Under the pieces are notes generated by a model. The model was not told where the DNA came from. It searched no databases and saw nothing but the letters and a program-made list of their open reading frames with translations. Positions 34,461 to 43,000 of a stretch of 64,000 nucleotides of DNA are shown here, in pieces. The stretch's first letter is position 1, and each line of letters begins with the position of its first letter. The position numbers and the translations under genes are program-made. This DNA is from Bacteroidia bacterium (lineage in GTDB: Bacteria > Bacteroidota > Bacteroidia > M30B66): positions 1,801,239 to 1,865,238 of the forward strand of contig OZ257142.1 of NCBI GenBank assembly GCA_965279035.1, given 5' to 3'.

Positions 34461-34625
34461 TTTATTCTCCGGATTGAAATCCGAGGTTGCGGGGGTGGGG
34501 ATTATCTACGTCTTATTCATTTATTAGCCGGATTGAAATCCGGGGTTGCGGGGTTTTATTATCTACATCTTATTCATTTATTCCCCGGATTGAAATCCGG
34601 GGTTGCCATTTCATTAATAAATCAT
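34461..34625 (+). repeat. Tandem ~58-bp repeat (2.7 copies) built around the palindrome ccggattgaaatccgg
   Basis: ccggattgaaatccg(a/g)ggttgc at 34468, 34527 and 34583, each followed by the similar attatctac(g/a)tcttattcatttatt. Confidence 0.8.
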
Positions 34626-34663
34626 GTATTAACGAATCAGCATACCAGCACACCAGCACATCA

Positions 34664-34990
34664 GCACACCAGTTTAATGTGCTAATCCGATAGCTATCGG
34701 ATAGTTGATGTGCTAATGTGCTTATGGAAAGATCAAATCTGCAACTTTCCGGTAACCTAACAGCACACTAATTCAATGTGCTAATCCGATAGCTATCGGA
34801 TAGTTGATATGCTAAAGTGCTAATGGAAAAACACAGCTCCAACCTTCAAGTAGCCTAACAGCACATCAGCATATCAGCACACCATTAAATCAATTCAATG
34901 TGCTAATTCGATAGCTATCGGATAGTTGATGTGCTAATGAACTAATGGAAAAGAACACTGCTCAAACATAACGCTAACATTTTGCAAACA
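34664..34990 (+). repeat. Three tandem copies of a ~110-bp REP/MITE-like element with core palindrome ATCCGATAGCTATCGGAT
   Basis: Core aatgtgctaat(c/t)cgatagctatcggatagttgat(g/a)tgcta at 34676, 34785 and 34897. Each copy carries a ctaacagcaca(c/t)cagca(c/t)a(c/t)cagcacacc tail. Confidence 0.8.
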
Positions 34991-35793: not shown

Positions 35794-35834
35794 TTTTCAG
35801 TCTGTTAGCGTACTGTTTTTAAATGTCTTATTAG

Positions 35835-35965
35835 CCTATTTCACACCATCAAATCAAATTAATGTGCTAATCCGATAGCTATCGGATAGCTAATATGCTA
35901 ATGTGCAGATGAAAAAGAAAACTGCTGCAACTTTCCGGTAACCTAACAGCACACCAGCACACCAT
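35835..35965 (+). repeat. Fourth copy of the ~110-bp palindromic REP-like element
   Basis: aatgtgctaatccgatagctatcggatagctaatatgctaatgtgc...ctaacagcacaccagcacaccatcacatc. Confidence 0.8.
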
Positions 35966-35973
35966 CACATCAA

Positions 35974-37062
35974 TTATTTAAACCAGCCTTTTCTTCTAAA
36001 ATAAAACACCATACCAATGGAAATTAAAATCATAATAATCCAAACAATAGGGTAGGCCCATTCTTGATCCAATTCTGGCATGAACTTGAAATTCATTCCG
36101 TAAACTCCTACGATAAATGTTAATGGGATAAATATTGTTGAAATAATCGTCAGTGTTTTCATGACGTTATTCATCTTATTACTCAATGAACTTAAATACA
36201 CGTCCATCATGCCCGAACTCAAGTCACGAAAGGTTTCTAGCGTATCAATAGCATGCACACAATGATCATACACATCACGTAAATAAATATCCGTATTGCC
36301 TTTTAAATGCAGGTGTTCGCTTTTCGATAAACTACTCACCACTTCACGCATTGGCCAAATGGATTTTCGTAAATAAATTAATTCCCTTTTTAATCCATGC
36401 AATATTTGTAAATCGCTCGTTTTTGCATCATTTAATAATTGAATTTCTGTTTCTTCCAAATGATCGCCAATCCGCTCCAGTACTACAAAATAATTATCTA
36501 CAATGGCATCCAATAAACTATATAAAATATAATCAGTTCCACTTTTTCGAACTTTCAAATTTCCCTTTCTCAAACGATCTCTCAAACCATCAAATAAATC
36601 ACCTTCATCTTCTATAAAACTAATAATTGTATTATTTAATAGAATGATACTTAATTGTTCTGTCTTTACTTGTTTCTCTTTATCGTCGTAACTAATCATT
36701 TTAACAACCACATACAAATACGCTCCGTAATCCTCCATTTTCGGGCGTTGTGTGGGATGAACAATATCTTCTTGCACTAAACTATGCAAACAAAATACAC
36801 GACCTAATTGCTCAACAACCGATGGTTCGTGTATTCCGATGACATTAATCCAGCGTGTTTGTTCCGAACTAACATCGTCTTTAATATCAGCAATACGGAC
36901 TTTTTTCTTCTCTGTAAAATGAGATTCATCCCAAGTGAGAATATCTGCATGGACTTCAAAATCGCGTGTTTCGCCTACATAAGCTACTGTTCCAGGTGCT
37001 AAACCTGCTTTACTTCCAAGGCGACGTTGCCGATGACGATGCGGTGTGTTGTACTTTTTCAT
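35974..37062 (-). CDS. corA: Magnesium/cobalt transporter CorA
   Basis: C-terminal two-TM region with the signature YGMNFKFMPEL (GMN motif). 362 aa. Confidence 0.85.
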   Translation of the reverse strand: MKKYNTPHRHRQRRLGSKAGLAPGTVAYVGETRDFEVHADILTWDESHFTEKKKVRIADIKDDVSSEQTRWINVIGIHEPSVVEQLGRVFCLHSLVQEDIVHPTQRPKMEDYGAYLYVVVKMISYDDKEKQVKTEQLSIILLNNTIISFIEDEGDLFDGLRDRLRKGNLKVRKSGTDYILYSLLDAIVDNYFVVLERIGDHLEETEIQLLNDAKTSDLQILHGLKRELIYLRKSIWPMREVVSSLSKSEHLHLKGNTDIYLRDVYDHCVHAIDTLETFRDLSSGMMDVYLSSLSNKMNNVMKTLTIISTIFIPLTFIVGVYGMNFKFMPELDQEWAYPIVWIIMILISIGMVFYFRRKGWFK

Positions 37063-37079: not shown

Positions 37080-38060
37080 CTATTTGCTTTTGTGACGCAC
37101 TACACTCAATGGCCCATCAATGCGGTTCCCATCGGGTAAAATCAATTCGAATTGATACGTTCCACTGGGCAAACCAGCACCATCCCAATCGTTTCGATAA
37201 TTATCCGTTTTAAAAACAACCAGGTCTTTTTTATTTCGAATCGTTAAACGACTATAGCGAGGCAATCCTTCGATATAAAATAAATCATTAAATCCATCTC
37301 CATTGGGTGTAACCACTTCGGGAACGTGCATGCGACCTGCTGGTAATATTTCACCCGAAGGAGGAGCGATAACCTGCACTTCGGTTGGTTTTTCTACTTC
37401 AGGTGTACAGCTACCTAAATACACATTGTCCACATAGAGATAGGCCAAACGAATGTATTGTGTTTGATCATTTGGCTGAAGATTCGTACTTGCATCGTTA
37501 CGGAAATTACCAATGGTGACAAACTGTTCACCTCCTTTAGCTTTGAATGTAAAGGATAGGATTTTCCAAGTTTTTCCTGTATCCGAAATGGCAAGGTATT
37601 TTTGACTTTTGAATTCTGGTTCGCGGATAATGGTGTTCCAGTCGTTCGAGCGTATGGAATCTTTGCTAAGCGCGATGCCCAATTCATCGGTAAAATAGCT
37701 CGATTTTTCTGCTGCCGAAACGGAGATTTTTAAACACAATTCTTCACCCGGAATGAGCATTCTGCTTAATCGAACTTCGAGGTATTCTCTGAAATTGGGA
37801 TTGTCGGCATCGTAAAGTATCAAGCCGGCAAACTGTTGTCCTTCAGCAGCCTTTTGCTTTCCATGTGGCACCTCTCCCGGTTTGATTAAATCGGGACTAC
37901 CAATTCCTGCAGGAAACCAAGGACTTGCCTGCTCAATATTTCCTGAATATTTCGATTTTACAGGCTTCAACGAACGTTCGAAGCTCCCATTGGGTATCAA
38001 ATTCTGCCCACAAACAGGCAGCACAGAAAGTAGAAAAATTATGGTCAGGAAGCGAATCAT
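37080..38060 (-). CDS. T9SS cargo protein with type-B (gliding-motility-associated) C-terminal domain
   Basis: Signal peptide. C-terminal VTPNGDGFNDLFYIEGLPRYSRLTIRNK...NYRNDWDG...GTYQFEL matches the TIGR04131-type CTD. Confidence 0.7.
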   Translation of the reverse strand: MIRFLTIIFLLSVLPVCGQNLIPNGSFERSLKPVKSKYSGNIEQASPWFPAGIGSPDLIKPGEVPHGKQKAAEGQQFAGLILYDADNPNFREYLEVRLSRMLIPGEELCLKISVSAAEKSSYFTDELGIALSKDSIRSNDWNTIIREPEFKSQKYLAISDTGKTWKILSFTFKAKGGEQFVTIGNFRNDASTNLQPNDQTQYIRLAYLYVDNVYLGSCTPEVEKPTEVQVIAPPSGEILPAGRMHVPEVVTPNGDGFNDLFYIEGLPRYSRLTIRNKKDLVVFKTDNYRNDWDGAGLPSGTYQFELILPDGNRIDGPLSVVRHKSK

Positions 38061-38084
38061 GCAAGGGGCGCAAGATAGTATTTT

Positions 38085-38435
38085 AGTGTGCTGATGTGCT
38101 AGTTTTTTGATGTGCTAGTTTTCCCGATTGCAATCGGGAGATGTACTAGTTTGTAGCTGCAGTATACCTCCCGCATCCCCGGATTTCAATCCGGGGGGAG
38201 ATTACCCTAATCTTTCACATCGCCCCAATCTCTCAATCACCCGCTTCGACAAGCTCAGCGGGCGGACTCTAGTCTTTCTCTAACCTAAGAGCACACCAAC
38301 CCACCATCACATCACTTTAATGTGCTAATCCGATAGCTATCGGATAGCTAATGTGCTCATGTGCTGATGGAAAAGAACACTGCTCCAACCTCGCACTAAC
38401 CTAACATCACATCATCACACCATCACACCAGCCTT
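38085..38435. repeat. Composite repeat block: inverted copy of the ccggattgaaatccgg element plus a fifth copy of the 110-bp palindromic element
   Basis: ccccggatttcaatccgggggg (38169-38190) is the reverse complement of the 34.5-kb repeat. The palindrome cccgattgcaatcggg is at 38135. The core aatgtgctaatccgatagctatcggatagctaatgtgct is at 38319, with a cacaccatcacaccagc tail. Confidence 0.75.
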
Positions 38436-38445
38436 TAGACTTGCA

Positions 38446-38643
38446 CTATTATTTTAGTTGAGATATCTTGACTGAAAATAAACAAAGAAACGGGGTGAAC
38501 TATCTCATCAGCTAGGTCTTTAAATCCCTAAGGTGTGTATGAGTCCCCGTTTCCTTTAACCATGTTGTTAATGGCCAGCTAGAATTTTAGACTTCGAGAT
38601 CTATTAAAGGTTTTAGCCAAGAGCAACACTTAAAAACAAAAGT
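38446..38643 (+). ncRNA. Candidate bridge (seek) RNA encoded in the IS110 non-coding 5' end
   Basis: ~200 bp non-coding left end upstream of the recombinase. This is the position where IS110-group elements (e.g. IS621) encode their structured bridge RNA. It contains the internal complementary segments gaaacggggtg / cccgtttcc. Confidence 0.35.
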
Positions 38644-39624
38644 ATGAAGAAGAACTTTATTGGCATTGATGTGTCAAAATTAACGCTGGATGTTTATTTA
38701 CATAATCAATCTCAGCACAACGTCTTTAGCAATGATATCGATGGTTATACACTGATGCTTGCTTGGTTAAAGCAGTTGAAAGTGAGTGTAAAATCGATGG
38801 CCATTTGCTTTGAGCATACGGGTATTTATAGCGAGGATTTATCTGTGTTTTTGAGTGAAAAGAAGATCTGTTTTTACATGGAATCCTCCTTAAACATTAA
38901 GTATTCTATTGGACTTCAGCGAGGCAAAAATGATAAGATAGACTCCCAAAGAATCGCAAATTTCATTGCATTACATGCAGAACAGCTTAGCCCAACGGTA
39001 CTATCAAAGAGTGCTGTAGCGCAGCTGAGAAAGCTCTTGAGTATGCGTTCGCATCTGGAAAAAGAGAAGATAGGCATCAAAAACAGACTTAAGAACTCAT
39101 CAAAAACCACTGGTGTAGATATAGTTTTTCAAATCGAAACGGATCTGTTAAAGACCTTTAACGATAAACTTAAACTGGTAGAAGAGGAAATCAAATCATT
39201 GATAAAGTCAGATGATAATCTTCGTCAAATCGACGAATTAGTTCAATCTATAAAAGGAGTTGGACCAGTGTCGAGTTGGTATTTAATCGCCACAACAAAT
39301 GGCTTTGAATACTTCGACAATGCTCGTCAATATGCATGTTATAGTGGAATAGCTCCATTCGAAAAATCATCAGGAACATCCATAAAAGGGAAAACACAAA
39401 CCGATAGAAGATCAAATCGAAAAATCAATGGAGTATTAACAATGGCGGCGCGTTCGGCAGTATTAAATAACACCGAAATGAGAGAATATATGGAGCGTAA
39501 AATCCAGGAAGGAAAACATTATAATTGTGCACTCAATGCAGTCAAAAACAAACTTGTATCAAGAGTATTTGCTGTCGTAAAAAGAAAAACACCCTATGTT
39601 GATCTAAAAAAATACGCTGCATAG
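38644..39624 (+). CDS. IS110-family transposase
   Basis: N-terminal FIGIDVSKLTLDVY (DEDD/RuvC-like N-domain). The C-terminal KGVGPVSSWYLIATTNGF...SGIAPFEKSSGTS block is typical of IS110/IS116/IS902 transposases. Confidence 0.85.
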   Translation: MKKNFIGIDVSKLTLDVYLHNQSQHNVFSNDIDGYTLMLAWLKQLKVSVKSMAICFEHTGIYSEDLSVFLSEKKICFYMESSLNIKYSIGLQRGKNDKIDSQRIANFIALHAEQLSPTVLSKSAVAQLRKLLSMRSHLEKEKIGIKNRLKNSSKTTGVDIVFQIETDLLKTFNDKLKLVEEEIKSLIKSDDNLRQIDELVQSIKGVGPVSSWYLIATTNGFEYFDNARQYACYSGIAPFEKSSGTSIKGKTQTDRRSNRKINGVLTMAARSAVLNNTEMREYMERKIQEGKHYNCALNAVKNKLVSRVFAVVKRKTPYVDLKKYAA

Positions 39625-40094
39625 ACTTGCATAAGTCCTAGAATACACACCAACCCACCAGCACATCAGATAAGTAAGATTCTTACTCTCCTCATCTTAT
39701 CATCCCTAAAATTTCCGGACTTGGGGGCTTCATTACAAAATCCATTTTCGTTTAAAGAGTGTAGAGATAAAGTTTTCAACAGAGCTAGTGTTATTTTGAC
39801 ACAATTAATTGGCAATGTGGGTGCTGATAGGCCTTTTATGTGGCTTATTCTGTTGAAAATCAAGGATTCTGTAAATTTGGTATTTCCATCTGATTGGTCT
39901 ATTTTTATGCTCCCTAAATTTCCCTTAGAAGTACCCTAATCTGTTTTGCTTTGAAAAATTTTGACGTGCTTTCTCGCTTCTCAACCCAAAACACTGCATT
40001 TTCTGTGTGGTGTAAGAAAAACAGCAAGTCTGTAACGTTTCCGATTTCATCCCGTATGCTTAGTGTTTTGAAAACTACCCTTTTCCCCGCATCC

Positions 40095-43000
40095 ATGAAG
40101 AACTTCAACTCCACCACCATGATGCTTACCCGTATTCGTTTAACCTGCTTGTTAGTACTTGCCGGTTTATCTGCTTTTGCGCAGACTACCGTTACCTACA
40201 CCCAGCAACAGGCAAACTACTACACCACTTTTACTGCCGGTACTGCTGGTAACTTCAACCAAGGCTCTTTCCAACTTGGGATGTATGCCAATGCTGGAGG
40301 TACAAAACAAGTAGCATCATTTCGTAAATTTCGAACGGATGGTTCGGGTTCATCTACCGGTGATCGGAGTATGAAAGTCGGTGATCAGTTTGTAGTCACC
40401 TTATCGGCTACTCGTGCCTATGGTAGAATCGGTTTCTCCCTTTTGGCTTCTCCAAGTGCAACTACTGCTTGGACCGATCGGGAAAACAATTATGCGATGA
40501 GCATGAATTTGGACGGAAATTCCGGAGCTTGGGGTAACTGGTATGCGAAGTACAATGGCGGTGGAACTTCTGCAGGATCGGCAAACGTAGCTGGACAACA
40601 AACTACCTATAAAAATTTCACTTTCACTCTTACGCTTACAGCTCCAGATCGGATGAATGCCACCTGGACAGATGGAACAACAACTAGTAATCTCTACGAT
40701 ATTCAATTAAATACTTCCAACCCGATTACCGACTATTGCGTGTTTTTGGAAGACGACTGGGATGGCGGAGCAAATCGAAACATCTACTGGGGATTAGGAG
40801 CAGTAGGAACTCAACACACATTAACCAATACAGGTAACTGTACTATTGGACAAAGCAATTCTTCCTTTACAACTTCAGGAGTAATTTTTAACGGACTCGA
40901 TGCCAATAGCGCATCCACCAATAGCTTAAACAACAACTTAGTAAAAAGCGGAACTGGTACACTCACCTTGAGCGGCGCTAATACATATGTTGGAACTACA
41001 ACAGTAAATGGTGGTTCACTTCTATTAGGTGCATCCGGTGTGATTCCTGATGCAAGTAATGTAACTCTTAATGGTGGAACCTTGAGTTCTGGATCCGGTG
41101 CAGGTTTTACAGAAGTCATGGGGACTTTGAACCTTAGCGCCAATTCAACCTTAGCTCTCGGAACAGGAGCACATACAATCACTTTTGCTAATTCCAGTGC
41201 TGTTTCTTGGACAGCCAATACGATCCTTACTGTTACTGGTTGGACAGGTACCAATAATGGAAATTCATCTGGAACAGCAGGGAAGCTGTTTGTTGGAAAT
41301 GGCTTTGGCGGATTGACAGGTATTCAATTATCAAGAATTCGATTTAATATCAGCGGTACTTTGTATGGAGCCATGCAATTGAGTACAGGTGAAGTGGTAC
41401 CTACAGGTGGAACGGTTTTATACTATGGTGGTGCAAATGGTACTTGGACTGGAAGTTTATGGAGTGTTAATGAAGGTGGACCATATACTACAGCATGGAC
41501 ATCTGGTTGTCATGCTGTAATGAATTTAACTTCAGGAGCAAATACTCTTACTGGAGCTACTACTAACATTGCTGCAATTACTGTAAATGCTGCGGTAACA
41601 TATGCAATAGGAGGTACTTGGAGTATGGGTCCTGCAGGTGCTGCCGTTGCTCCAATATACGTAGATAATGGGGTAACATTTTCAATGCTTGGTCAGGGAA
41701 TTTCAGTTACAGCTGGAAATGGTATAATAAAAAATGGTTCAGGGATTTTACAAGGCGCCAATGGTAATAATTACTTAGGTGGATTTACAATTAACAATGG
41801 AATGTTTGCCATTGGTGGAATTAATTCCATGGGAAATGGTGGAACTTTAAATATTAATGGTGGAACATTAGCCGGAACTGCAAATCGTGATTTAACAGGA
41901 AAATTTAGTTCAATAACTATTGGTGGAGATTTTACATTAGGTTCATCTACTTCTCCTGCATCAGGTACTGCAACATTAACTTTTACAAATAATACAGCTT
42001 TAGGAAGTTCTGTTACACGTACAATCACATTAGGTGGAACTGGTTTAATTACTTGGAATGGTATCATCAGTGGTACTAGTTCTAACTTAACGATTGGTGC
42101 TACTGCAGCGGGTTCTATGTCGCTTGGTGGAGTTAATACATTTGGAGGAAACTTTACAGTCAATGCAGCATCAAGTACCATTACACTCGCAGCAGCAAAT
42201 TCATATGGTGGAGGAACAGTTGTTAATGCTGGTACATTAAAACTTACTATTTCTTCTGCAATCCCATCAGGTTCGGCATTAAGTTTTGCGAATACATCAG
42301 GAGCAATTCTCGATTTAACTACGACTGCTTTAACACACACTGTTGCCTCTCTTTCGGGTGGTGGCTCAACTGGTGGTAATATCAGCTTTGGCGCTCCAGC
42401 TACAGGCGAAGTGTTAACAATCAATCAATCAGGTAACACAACGTATTCAGGTTTAATTAGTGGTAACGGTTCAATCACCAAAACAGGTGCTGGAATCTTA
42501 ACCTTTGGTCATACTGCTAATACTTATACAGGTTCTACAACCATTTCGGCTGGAGAGCTTCGCTTGAACCCAAGCACAACCACAGCTACATTTGCTTCAC
42601 CCGTAATTTTAAGTGGTGGTAAATTGAGCACTACTTCGATTACAGCTGCTACAACTTTCACTAGCTCATCAACCTTAAAACTTAACGCAAGCAGCAGCAT
42701 CGACTTAGGTTCGAATGCGCATTCCTTGAAATTTGCTGCTTCGAACGGTGTTGCTTGGACAGGTGCAACTACCTTAACAATCAATGGTTGGACAGGTACA
42801 GGAGGAGCAACAGGAACTGCTGGTAAAATCTTTTTCGGTTCTGCAGTAGGAACACTTACAGGAACTCAATTAGGGCAAATCACATTTACTGGTTATACGG
42901 GAACACCTATCCTTTTATCAACAGGAGAATTGGTTCCTCCAGTTCCGTCAGTTACCTATACATGGACTGGTGGTGCAGGAGATTTTCTTTGGACAAGTCC

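What the first reader, a model, noticed from the sequence alone, without database searches (positions are those of the whole stretch)
38436..39950. IS110-family element with a ~200-bp non-coding 5' end (bridge-RNA candidate) inserted into a REP-like repeat ~330 bp upstream of the giant adhesin gene
IS110-family recombinases use an element-encoded structured bridge RNA located in the non-coding end upstream of the recombinase. The 198-bp left end here is the right size and position. The element sits inside a copy of the local palindromic repeat family, and several IS110/IS1111 members are known to target REP sequences. It is co-directional with, and immediately upstream of, the 21-kb gene, so it may influence that gene's transcription. 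The 10-bp tagacttgca on both sides could be the duplicated target or donor core.
Basis: partly seen in the sequence, partly recalled or inferred. Interest (0 to 1): 0.6.

Follow-up and report, generated by a model that had tools for sequence, protein, structure and literature searches.

The report
Bridge-RNA insertion sequence in a REP repeat
This is an intact 1.2-kb IS110-family mobile element whose own small guide RNA ("bridge RNA") matches the repeat sequence it has inserted into; it is a well-resolved but ordinary member of a class described in 2024.

Summary
The core of the finding holds; two details do not. Window 38433-39646 (+) is a complete 1,214-bp IS110-family element. It has a 211-bp non-coding left end, a 326-aa DEDD/Ser recombinase (38644-39624) and a 22-bp right end.

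The left end encodes a two-loop RNA with IS621-like geometry. Its stems covary across 63 distinct relatives (27 of 32 pairs show compensatory changes). In eight close element types the first-loop guides differ, and each matches its own flanks. A blind test on distant Bacteroidota loci gave 5.2/7 and 4.1/5 guide-flank matches, against 1.9 and 1.4 for mismatched pairs. The second loop matches the element's own ends (CTAGAAT / CTTTA).

The target is an octamer array (…CATCA-GC-ACACC…) at the end of a local ~115-bp palindromic repeat.

The 10-bp TAGACTTGCA repeat is not a target duplication. Its two copies overlap conserved boxes that would form a promoter across the joined ends of a circular form. 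The element ends at 39646, not 39950, and lies 448 bp upstream of the giant gene's likely ATG.

RNA expression, transposition activity and any effect on the giant gene are untested.

It is a new member of a known kind. One side observation: the first "core" base differs between the left and right junctions in 32 of 40 insertions.

The parts
38424..38430 (+). Left target (LT), host DNA: CACACCA
   Evidence: These are the 7 nt before the left core. They match LTG CUCAUCA at 5 of 7 positions, plus one U.G wobble. Relatives L001 and L002 have CACATCA and ATTATCA against their own LTGs.
38431..38432 (+). Left 'core' GC. The first base follows the target (it matches the LTG); the second base, C, is shared with the right junction.
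   Evidence: The second base is the same at left and right in 39 of 40 insertions. The first base is the same in only 8 of 40.
38433..39646 (+). Whole IS110-family element, 1,214 bp, counting the right-hand core
   Evidence: Conservation with relatives L001, L002, L013, L093, L096, L098, L103 and L003 starts and stops at these bases, and the flanks differ.
38433..38437 (+). Right donor (RD), CTTTA: first bases of the left end
   Evidence: Reverse complement of the RDG UAAAG (38605-09). Family consensus is CTTTAGaTTtG.
38436..38443 (+). TAGACTTG: candidate -7 (or -10) promoter box in the left end.
   Evidence: Fixed-position conserved box in 45 distinct elements. It resembles the Bacteroidetes -7 consensus TAnnTTTG (PMC2483708). 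Function is inferred.
38452..38477 (+). 5' stem-loop of the RNA (predicted)
   Evidence: Single-sequence fold. This segment differs from most relatives, which carry a ~40-nt G-rich insert here. Weak evidence.
38485..38555 (+). Target-binding stem-loop. Outer stem 38485-95 / 38545-55; inner stem 38513-16 / 38527-30.
   Evidence: RNAalifold and counted pairs: 10 of 11 outer-stem pairs and 4 of 4 inner-stem pairs show compensatory changes across 63 distinct sequences.
38504..38512 (+). Left target guide (LTG): CUCAUCA + GC
   Evidence: It has the same sequence as the top strand of the left flank. It covaries with the flank in 8 close element types and in distant loci. Column entropy is 1.84 bits.
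38532..38540 (+). Right target guide GGUGU, core-binding GU and handshake AU
   Evidence: The reverse complement ATACACACC equals the right junction 39643-39651 exactly. It covaries with the flank in relatives.
38564..38627 (+). Donor-binding stem-loop. Outer stems 38564-69 / 38622-27 and 38572-75 / 38616-19; inner stem 38588-91 / 38600-03.
   Evidence: All 10 outer-stem pairs and 3 of 4 inner-stem pairs show compensatory changes.
38579..38585 (+). Left donor guide (LDG): CUAGAAU
   Evidence: Identical to LD CTAGAAT at 39638-44. Conserved across the family, entropy 0.32 bits.
38605..38613 (+). Right donor guide UAAAG, core-binding GU and handshake UU
   Evidence: Reverse complement of AC-CTTTA, the right core followed by the left-end start. 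Entropy 0.22 bits. The first handshake base is complementary to LT7 more often than chance.
38644..39624 (+). Recombinase gene, 326 aa
   Evidence: Pfam PF01548 and PF02371. Aligns to ISCro4 9t56 (E 1.6e-25) and IS621 8wt6 (E 1.5e-22). D9, E57, D97, D100 and S243 align with IS621 D11, E60, D102, D105 and S241, and are invariant in A1.
39622..39631 (+). Right copy of TAGACTTGCA. It holds the stop codon TAG and the conserved TTG box (39627-29), the candidate -33/-35 half of a junction promoter.
   Evidence: TTG sits at a fixed position in the right end of most of 45 distinct elements. In a circle it would lie 20 nt upstream of the left-end TAGAyTTG box. Function is inferred.
39638..39644 (+). 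Left donor (LD): CTAGAAT, last bases of the right end
   Evidence: Equals the LDG and is found once near the stop codon.
39645..39646 (+). Right 'core' AC (donor-type)
   Evidence: AC in 34 of 46 right junctions. It matches the core-binding bases of the RTG and RDG.
39647..39651 (+). Right target (RT), host DNA: ACACC
   Evidence: Perfect complement of RTG GGUGU. It continues the host octamer array.
38300..38432 (.). Host REP/MITE-like unit that was hit, ending in the octamer array. The array continues at 39647-39670.
   Evidence: Joining 38432 to 39647 restores …CACACCAGCACACCAACC…, which is colinear with intact units at 35840-35975 and 34664-34880. The predicted target CATCAGCACACC occurs uninterrupted at 34659-70.

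Best explanation
Window 38433-39646 is an intact IS110-family (IS110-group) insertion sequence that chooses its target with a bridge RNA encoded in its own left end.

Shown by sequence comparison:
- The ~150-nt RNA (38484-38630) folds into two stem-loops, each with an internal loop.
- The first loop carries a 7+2-nt left guide identical to the top strand of the left flank. It also carries a 5+2(+2)-nt right guide complementary to the right flank.
- The second loop carries the same two kinds of guide, in the same geometry, for the element's own ends (…CTAGAAT-AC | CTTTA…).
- The guides specify the motif …CATCA-GC-ACACC…, an octamer array at the end of a ~115-bp palindromic repeat. The element sits exactly there.

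Inferred by analogy with IS621:
- The DEDD/Ser recombinase, loaded with this RNA, pairs the joined ends of an excised circular copy with the target. It exchanges strands next to the conserved C.
- Joining the ends would bring a TTG box in the right end 20 nt upstream of a TAGAyTTG box in the left end. That would create a promoter for the RNA and the recombinase.
For: Protein: Pfam PF01548 and PF02371. Near full-length alignment to IS621 and ISCro4 recombinases, with all five catalytic residues aligned.

Boundaries: relatives share sequence only between CTTTAGAC… and …CCTAGAATAC, and their flanks are unrelated.

RNA structure:
- The single-sequence fold has z = -2.7.
- A covariance model built from 8 close sequences finds a full-length hit directly upstream of the gene in about 57 further loci at 37-45% protein identity, scoring 45-102 bits.
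- On 63 distinct sequences, 92% of cells pair, against 75% when shuffled and 33-48% when slid. 27 of 32 pairs show compensatory changes.

Guides:
- Eight close element types have different LTG/RTG sequences, each matching its own flanks.
- In the blind test, junctions were located only from the donor-loop guides. On 35-40 distant loci, LT matches were 5.23/7 against 1.89, and RT matches 4.05/5 against 1.44. None of 5000 permutations reached these values.
- Target-guide columns are near maximum entropy (1.8 bits). Donor-guide columns are conserved (0.2-0.3 bits).

Target: CATCAGCACACC occurs intact at 34659-70, and the reconstructed empty site is colinear with paralogous units. L096 has two copies in two successive repeat units.

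Strand conventions follow PMC11208160 and PMC11208158.
Against: - No Rfam 15 family matches the region.
- There are no expression data, no circular form and no empty site. An exact search for the predicted circle junction in metagenome contigs gave only a chance hit inside an unrelated coding sequence.
- The two LDG positions expected to read the core (UU, 38586-87) do not match AC, and they vary across the family.
- The first 'core' base differs between the two junctions, unlike the identical CT cores of IS621.
- The window's LTG matches its actual left flank only 5 of 7, plus one wobble.
- The alignment used for the pair counts was fitted to the model, which favours the structure.
Confidence: 0.9

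Rival explanations
1. The 10-bp TAGACTTGCA copies mark the element ends, as a target duplication or donor core. On this reading the element is 38446-39631 (or runs to 39950).
For: There are two exact copies 1,186 bp apart, bracketing most of the element.
Against: - Up to one mismatch, the motif's count in the window is no higher than in shuffles (4 against 4.8).
- Relatives keep the left copy but read TAAATTTGCA, GAAATTTGGA or TAAGATTTGGA on the right.
- Conservation continues 14-15 bp beyond the right copy, to CCTAGAATAC. It also starts 3 bp before the left copy.
- The donor-loop guides point to CTAGAAT-AC and CTTTA, not to this motif.
Confidence: 0.02
2. The left end is only a promoter and 5' UTR, and the element is a decaying relic with no RNA guide function.
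For: There is no Rfam hit and no expression data. The LTG differs from the actual left flank at two positions.
Against: - The stems show compensatory changes and the guides covary with the flanks across dozens of elements.
- The ORF is full length with all catalytic residues.
- The RNA scores 182.7 bits, full length, against the family model.
- 96%- and 87%-identical proteins occur in other samples.
Confidence: 0.05
3. Beyond being a mobile element, this copy changes expression of the giant T9SS surface protein downstream. It could read out from a right-end promoter (TTG 39599-601, 20 nt, TAGACTTG 39622-29), or it could separate the gene from upstream signals.
For: The IS is in the same orientation as the gene and 448 bp upstream of ATG 40095. 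A -33/-7-like pair lies at the end of the IS. No terminator-like site was found between 38300 and 40150.
Against: - As a -7 element, the right-end box is not conserved in relatives. Only its TTG is conserved.
- A perfect TAAATTTG box at 39872-79 lies between the IS and the gene and could be the gene's own promoter.
- There are no transcript data.
Confidence: 0.15
4. The element belongs to the IS1111 subgroup, whose guide (seek) RNA lies 3' of the recombinase.
For: It has the same two Pfam domains.
Against: Only 22 bp follow the stop codon inside the element. The structured RNA with both guide loops lies upstream of the gene.
Confidence: 0.01

Closest known systems
IS621 (E. coli), the reference bridge-RNA IS110 element (PMC11208160, PMC11208158; PDB 8wt6)
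   Same: - Same two-domain DEDD/Ser recombinase, E 1.5e-22, with all five catalytic residues aligned.
- The RNA is encoded in the left end, upstream of the gene.
- Two internal loops with 7+2-nt left guides (top-strand sense) and right guides (antisense), followed by 2-nt handshake positions.
- The target lies in repeated extragenic DNA.
- A promoter split between the right and left ends.
   Different: - The proteins are distant relatives: no identity figure was computed, and the PDB alignments score only 84-94 bits over ~315 residues.
- The conserved junction base is a single C preceded by a base that differs left versus right (GC/AC), not a CT-CT core.
- The donor ends are CTAGAAT-AC-CTTTA.
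- The junction boxes fit the Bacteroidetes -33/-7 consensus.
- The RNA does not match any Rfam model.
- Nothing has been tested experimentally here.
ISCro4 recombinase (PDB 9t56)
   Same: Best solved-structure match to the protein (E 1.6e-25, residues 4-318).
   Different: Distant sequence relative. Its RNA and target were not compared here.
ISPpu10 (Pseudomonas putida), an IS110 element restricted to one conserved intergenic hairpin sequence (bioRxiv 10.64898/2026.03.19.712850)
   Same: Bridge-RNA element whose natural targets are copies of an intergenic palindromic repeat.
   Different: - That paper reports a requirement for a DNA hairpin 5' of the target and an RNA lacking the 5' stem-loop.
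- Whether the palindrome next to the octamer array matters here was not tested.
- The host phylum is different.
IS1111-group elements with seekRNA (e.g. IS1111, IS4321/IS5075)
   Same: Same recombinase family and RNA-guided target choice.
   Different: Their RNA lies 3' of the gene and they have subterminal inverted repeats. Here the RNA is 5' and the right end is 22 bp.

Membership tests
IS110 family, IS110 group (bridge-RNA elements) | Recombinase with an N-terminal DEDD RuvC-like domain and a C-terminal Tnp domain | tested here: met
   PF01548 (E 2.5e-16) and PF02371 (E 2.2e-18).
IS110 family, IS110 group (bridge-RNA elements) | Catalytic D-E-D-D and Ser residues present | tested here: met
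   D9, E57, D97, D100 and S243 align with IS621 D11, E60, D102, D105 and S241. All are invariant among 13 relatives.
IS110 family, IS110 group (bridge-RNA elements) | Structured non-coding RNA in the left end with two stem-loops, each enclosing an internal loop | tested here: met
   RNAalifold. Pair counts: 27 of 32 pairs compensatory and 92% paired, against 75% shuffled. Model hits lie upstream of the gene in about 57 distant loci.
IS110 family, IS110 group (bridge-RNA elements) | Target-loop guides match the flanking target: LTG equals the LT top strand, RTG is complementary to RT | tested here: met
   Window: RT 5/5 plus core and handshake, 9/9 in all; LT 5/7 plus a wobble. Family test: 5.2/7 and 4.1/5 against 1.9 and 1.4 null, with 0 of 5000 permutations reaching these values.
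IS110 family, IS110 group (bridge-RNA elements) | Donor-loop guides match the element's own ends | tested here: met
   LDG CUAGAAU equals 39638-44. RDG UAAAG-GU is the reverse complement of AC-CTTTA. Each was found once, at the expected place.
IS110 family, IS110 group (bridge-RNA elements) | Identical short core (a dinucleotide in IS621) at both junctions, with no inverted repeats and no longer duplication | tested here: inconclusive
   No terminal inverted repeat and no real duplication. The second core base, C, is shared in 39 of 40 insertions, but the first is shared in only 8 of 40 (window: GC left, AC right).
IS110 family, IS110 group (bridge-RNA elements) | Circular intermediate whose right-end/left-end junction forms a promoter | not testable with these tools
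   Motifs are consistent: TTG-N20-TAGAyTTG across the predicted junction, conserved in 45 distinct elements. No circle junction was found in metagenome contigs.
IS110 family, IS110 group (bridge-RNA elements) | RNA is expressed and required for recombination | not testable with these tools
   Needs RNA-seq and recombination assays.
IS1111 group (seekRNA 3' of the gene) | Guide RNA downstream of the recombinase gene, with subterminal inverted repeats | tested here: not met
   The right end is 22 bp, and both guide loops lie upstream of the gene.
Any Rfam 15 RNA family | Match to a curated covariance model | tested here: not met
   Only a 21-nt, 11-bit chance match to cyano_tmRNA at E 4.3.

The most novel reading that the evidence does not exclude
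In this Bacteroidota subfamily only one junction base (C) is shared between target and donor. The base before it is always target-type on the left and donor-type on the right. Among insertions where the two are predicted to differ, 22 fit that pattern and none fit the reverse. This is the genotype expected if only the top strand is transferred and the other strand is filled in by replication, so natural insertions would carry a record of single-strand, copy-type transposition. That model is currently argued from IS621 and CazIS110-1 experiments (bioRxiv 10.1101/2025.10.25.684509 and 10.64898/2026.08.31.748434). The alternative is a recombinase with a 1-nt crossover region.
Probability: 0.35. 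Interest if true: 0.55.

Novelty: new member of a known kind. Interest (0 to 1): 0.32.

Why it matters
For this genome, the finding explains a 1.2-kb insertion in the repeat-rich region upstream of a 7,000-residue T9SS surface protein. It also gives the element's exact ends and its target motif.

More widely, it defines a Bacteroidota subfamily of bridge-RNA elements with these features:
- a usable covariance model;
- known donor ends;
- target guides that follow host-specific variants of an octamer repeat;
- a junction promoter of Bacteroidetes type.

Such elements could serve as programmable recombinases native to Bacteroidota. The left/right core asymmetry bears on the current debate over single-strand versus double-strand transfer. 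None of this changes the known picture of how IS110 elements work.

Tried and rejected
- Rfam scan of 37800-40300 at E<=10 gave nothing relevant.
- Exact look-up of the window's recombinase in the assembly collection: not on record. The contig of P0001 (96% identical) could not be read because the sample file is too large.
- blastn of the element against plasmids: no match.
- Search for the predicted circle or tandem junction GTCCTAGAATACCTTTAGA in metagenome contigs gave one hit, inside an unrelated coding sequence (L107).
- Alternative core registers were considered: AT/AG just before CC, TA/CA one base earlier, and a blunt model. They were rejected in favour of N-C. That register makes the LTG match end exactly at the core. 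It also makes RTG+HSG equal the right junction, gives RDG GU = AC, and gives 7-nt LT/LD as in IS621.
- RNAalifold paired the two strands of the donor loop with each other through G.U pairs. Those pairs are invariant in the close set, so they have no support. Covariation instead favours the outer helix 38572-75 / 38616-19.
- The sigma-70 consensus scan of the integrated locus found no more sites than shuffles.
- Complementarity between the second handshake base and LT6: no signal.

Full report
**1. Observation**

The ORF at 38644-39624 (+) encodes 326 aa with the two Pfam domains of IS110-family recombinases, PF01548 and PF02371. It aligns over residues 4-318 with the solved ISCro4 (9t56, E 1.6e-25) and IS621 (8wt6, E 1.5e-22) recombinases. 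D9, E57, D97, D100 and S243 fall on IS621's D11, E60, D102, D105 and S241, and all are invariant among 13 relatives. TAGACTTGCA occurs exactly at 38436-45 and 39622-31. The giant ORF (39951-61157, +) has a signal-peptide-like start at ATG 40095, a PATR repeat and a T9SS Por_Secre_tail. The divergent upstream gene has a CHU_C T9SS domain, so the host is a Bacteroidota.

**2. True boundaries**

I fetched contigs carrying relatives at 87%, 81%, 77%, 75%, 67%, 58% and 56% protein identity. Alignment of their flanks shows that shared sequence begins at CTTTAGACTTGCAC (window 38433) and ends at …AAGTCCTAGAATAC (window 39646). Outside these points the sequences are unrelated.

- The element is therefore 1,214 bp: a 211-bp left end, the ORF, and a 22-bp right end.
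- The stretch 39647-39950 is host DNA.
- The right-hand TAGACTTGCA reads TAAATTTGCA, GAAATTTGGA or TAAGATTTGGA in relatives, and both copies lie inside the element. It is not a target duplication.

**3. The RNA**

*Structure.* The left end folds better than shuffles (z = -2.7). Eight close sequences give a consensus of two stem-loops. I fixed a structure with open internal loops, counted pairs and built a covariance model. The model finds a full-length hit ending just before the start codon in about 57 further Bacteroidota loci whose proteins are only 37-45% identical, scoring 45-102 bits. On 63 distinct sequences:

- 92% of cells pair, against 75% after shuffling and 33-48% after sliding;
- 27 of 32 pairs show compensatory changes.

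This alignment was fitted to the model, which favours the structure. The size of the effect and the slid controls argue that the structure is real.

*Geometry.* Both loops have the same layout. Seven bases plus two lie directly 5' of the inner stem. One spacer, five bases, two bases and two bases lie 3' of it. This is the IS621 layout: LTG/LDG, then RTG/RDG with core-binding and handshake positions (PMC11208160 and PMC11208158).

**4. Guides**

By the published convention, the left guides read like the top strand and the right guides are antisense.

| Guide (window coordinates) | Sequence | Matches |
|---|---|---|
| LTG, 38504-12 | CUCAUCA-GC | left flank CACACCA-GC: 5/7 plus one U.G wobble, core 2/2 |
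| RTG + handshake, 38532-40 | GGUGU-GU-AU | reverse complement ATACACACC equals right junction 39643-51 exactly |
| LDG, 38579-85 | CUAGAAU | element bases 39638-44 |
| RDG, 38605-11 | UAAAG-GU | reverse complement of AC-CTTTA |

The eight close element types carry different target guides. The left guides include CAUCA, UAUCA, AAAUA, CAUUA, AAUUA, CAUCU and CAUCUA. The right guides read ACACC, ACACU, ACAUC, UAAUC and AUUUA. Each matches its own flanks.

For an unbiased test I located junctions in every locus using only the donor-loop guides, then compared the target-loop guides with the flanks found. In loci not used to form the hypothesis:

- LT matched 5.23/7, against 1.89 for mismatched pairs;
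- RT matched 4.05/5, against 1.44;
- none of 5000 permutations reached these values.

Target-guide columns are almost maximally variable (1.8 bits). Donor-guide columns are nearly fixed (0.2-0.3 bits). The first donor-loop handshake base is complementary to LT7 in 25 of 55 cases, against 14.4 expected. Relatedness among sequences may inflate that last figure.

**5. Target**

The guides specify …CATCA-GC-ACACC…. That 12-mer occurs intact at 34659-70, and near-copies occur in several intergenic regions. These belong to a ~115-bp repeat built around the palindrome AATGTGCTAATCCGATAGCTATCGGATAGCTAATGTGCT, which ends in an array of octamers. Joining 38432 to 39647 restores an array colinear with intact units.

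Relatives sit in host-specific variants of the same octamer (CACATTAG, CACATCTG and others), and their guides follow those variants. One contig has two copies in two successive repeat units.

**6. Promoter inference**

Across 45 distinct elements the predicted joined ends read …TTG-N17…TAGAATAC|CTT-TAGAyTTG…. This places a TTG box in the right end 20 nt upstream of a TAnnTTTG-like box in the left end. It is the Bacteroidetes -33/-7 consensus (PMC2483708) split across the junction, parallel to the split sigma-70 promoter of IS621. This step is inferred. No circle junction was found in metagenome contigs.

**7. Departure from IS621**

The second junction base (C) is the same left and right in 39 of 40 insertions. 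The first is the same in only 8 of 40; in the window it is G on the left and A on the right. I then took the 34 insertions where the left guide and the donor guide predict different bases:

- 22 have the target base on the left and the donor base on the right;
- none have the reverse;
- 12 fit neither pattern.

This fits top-strand-only transfer, as proposed in two recent preprints. It equally fits a 1-nt crossover region. I cannot separate the two.

**8. Effect on the giant gene**

The IS is co-oriented with the gene and 448 bp upstream of ATG 40095. No terminator-like site lies between them. A -33/-7-like pair at the very end of the IS could read outward, but that box is not conserved as a -7 element. 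A perfect TAAATTTG at 39872-79 could be the gene's own promoter. No conclusion is possible without transcript data.

**9. Verdict**

This is a real, intact bridge-RNA insertion sequence in a REP-like repeat. It is a new member of a kind described in 2024 and is not surprising to a specialist. The proposed duplication and the right-hand boundary are wrong.

Noticed in passing
window 34630-34990, 35830-35975, 38084-38432, 39647-39670: A ~115-bp REP/MITE-like repeat. It is built around the palindrome AATGTGCTAATCCGATAGCTATCGGATAGCTAATGTGCT and ends in an array of octamers (A/C)CA(G/T)CACA(C/T)C. There are several copies in three intergenic regions.
   Followed up: partly
window 34585-34605, 38177-38198, 38125-38140: A second family of short GC-rich hairpins, unrelated to the IS target: CCCCGGAT(T)nnAATCCGGGG, and CCCGATTGCAATCGGG.
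   Followed up: no
40 insertions in loci L001-L106 and the window (38431-32 vs 39645-46): The first 'core' base differs between the left and right junctions in 32 of 40 insertions. In 22 cases it is target-type on the left and donor-type on the right; in none is it the reverse. This fits top-strand-only transfer or a 1-nt overlap.
   Followed up: partly
45 distinct elements; window 39627-29 and 38436-43: The predicted right-end/left-end junction carries TTG-N20-TAGAyTTG. This is the Bacteroidetes -33/-7 promoter consensus split between the two ends.
   Followed up: partly
L096 1251-2502 and 2646-3897 (same in L097): Two copies of a related IS (67% protein identity) sit in two successive host repeat units, 1,395 bp apart.
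   Followed up: partly
L002 2685-2716: A solo left-end remnant (CATCA-GC-CTTTAGACTTGCACTAGTTTTTT) lies about 105 bp upstream of a full copy. It looks like the scar of an earlier insertion or deletion.
   Followed up: no
L059 2175-2360: A distant relative carries about 180 bp of extra DNA, with a strong hairpin, between its stop codon and right end. Its right flank (CTTTACC) does not match its right target guide but resembles the donor sequence.
   Followed up: no
window 38446-38483 vs L013, L093, L096, L098, L103, L003: The window-type element (also L001 and L002) lacks a ~40-nt G-rich segment (…GGGGGGTCTGGGGGG…) that the other close relatives have between the left-end terminus and the first loop. 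It has a different 5' hairpin instead.
   Followed up: no
window 39872-39879: A perfect TAAATTTG box lies 216 bp upstream of the giant gene's ATG (40095) and downstream of the IS. It is a candidate native promoter.
   Followed up: no
window 38627-38643: A TAAAA motif sits between the RNA's last stem and the recombinase ATG, ending 9 nt before the ATG. It matches the Flavobacterium ribosome-binding consensus quoted in PMC2483708.
   Followed up: no
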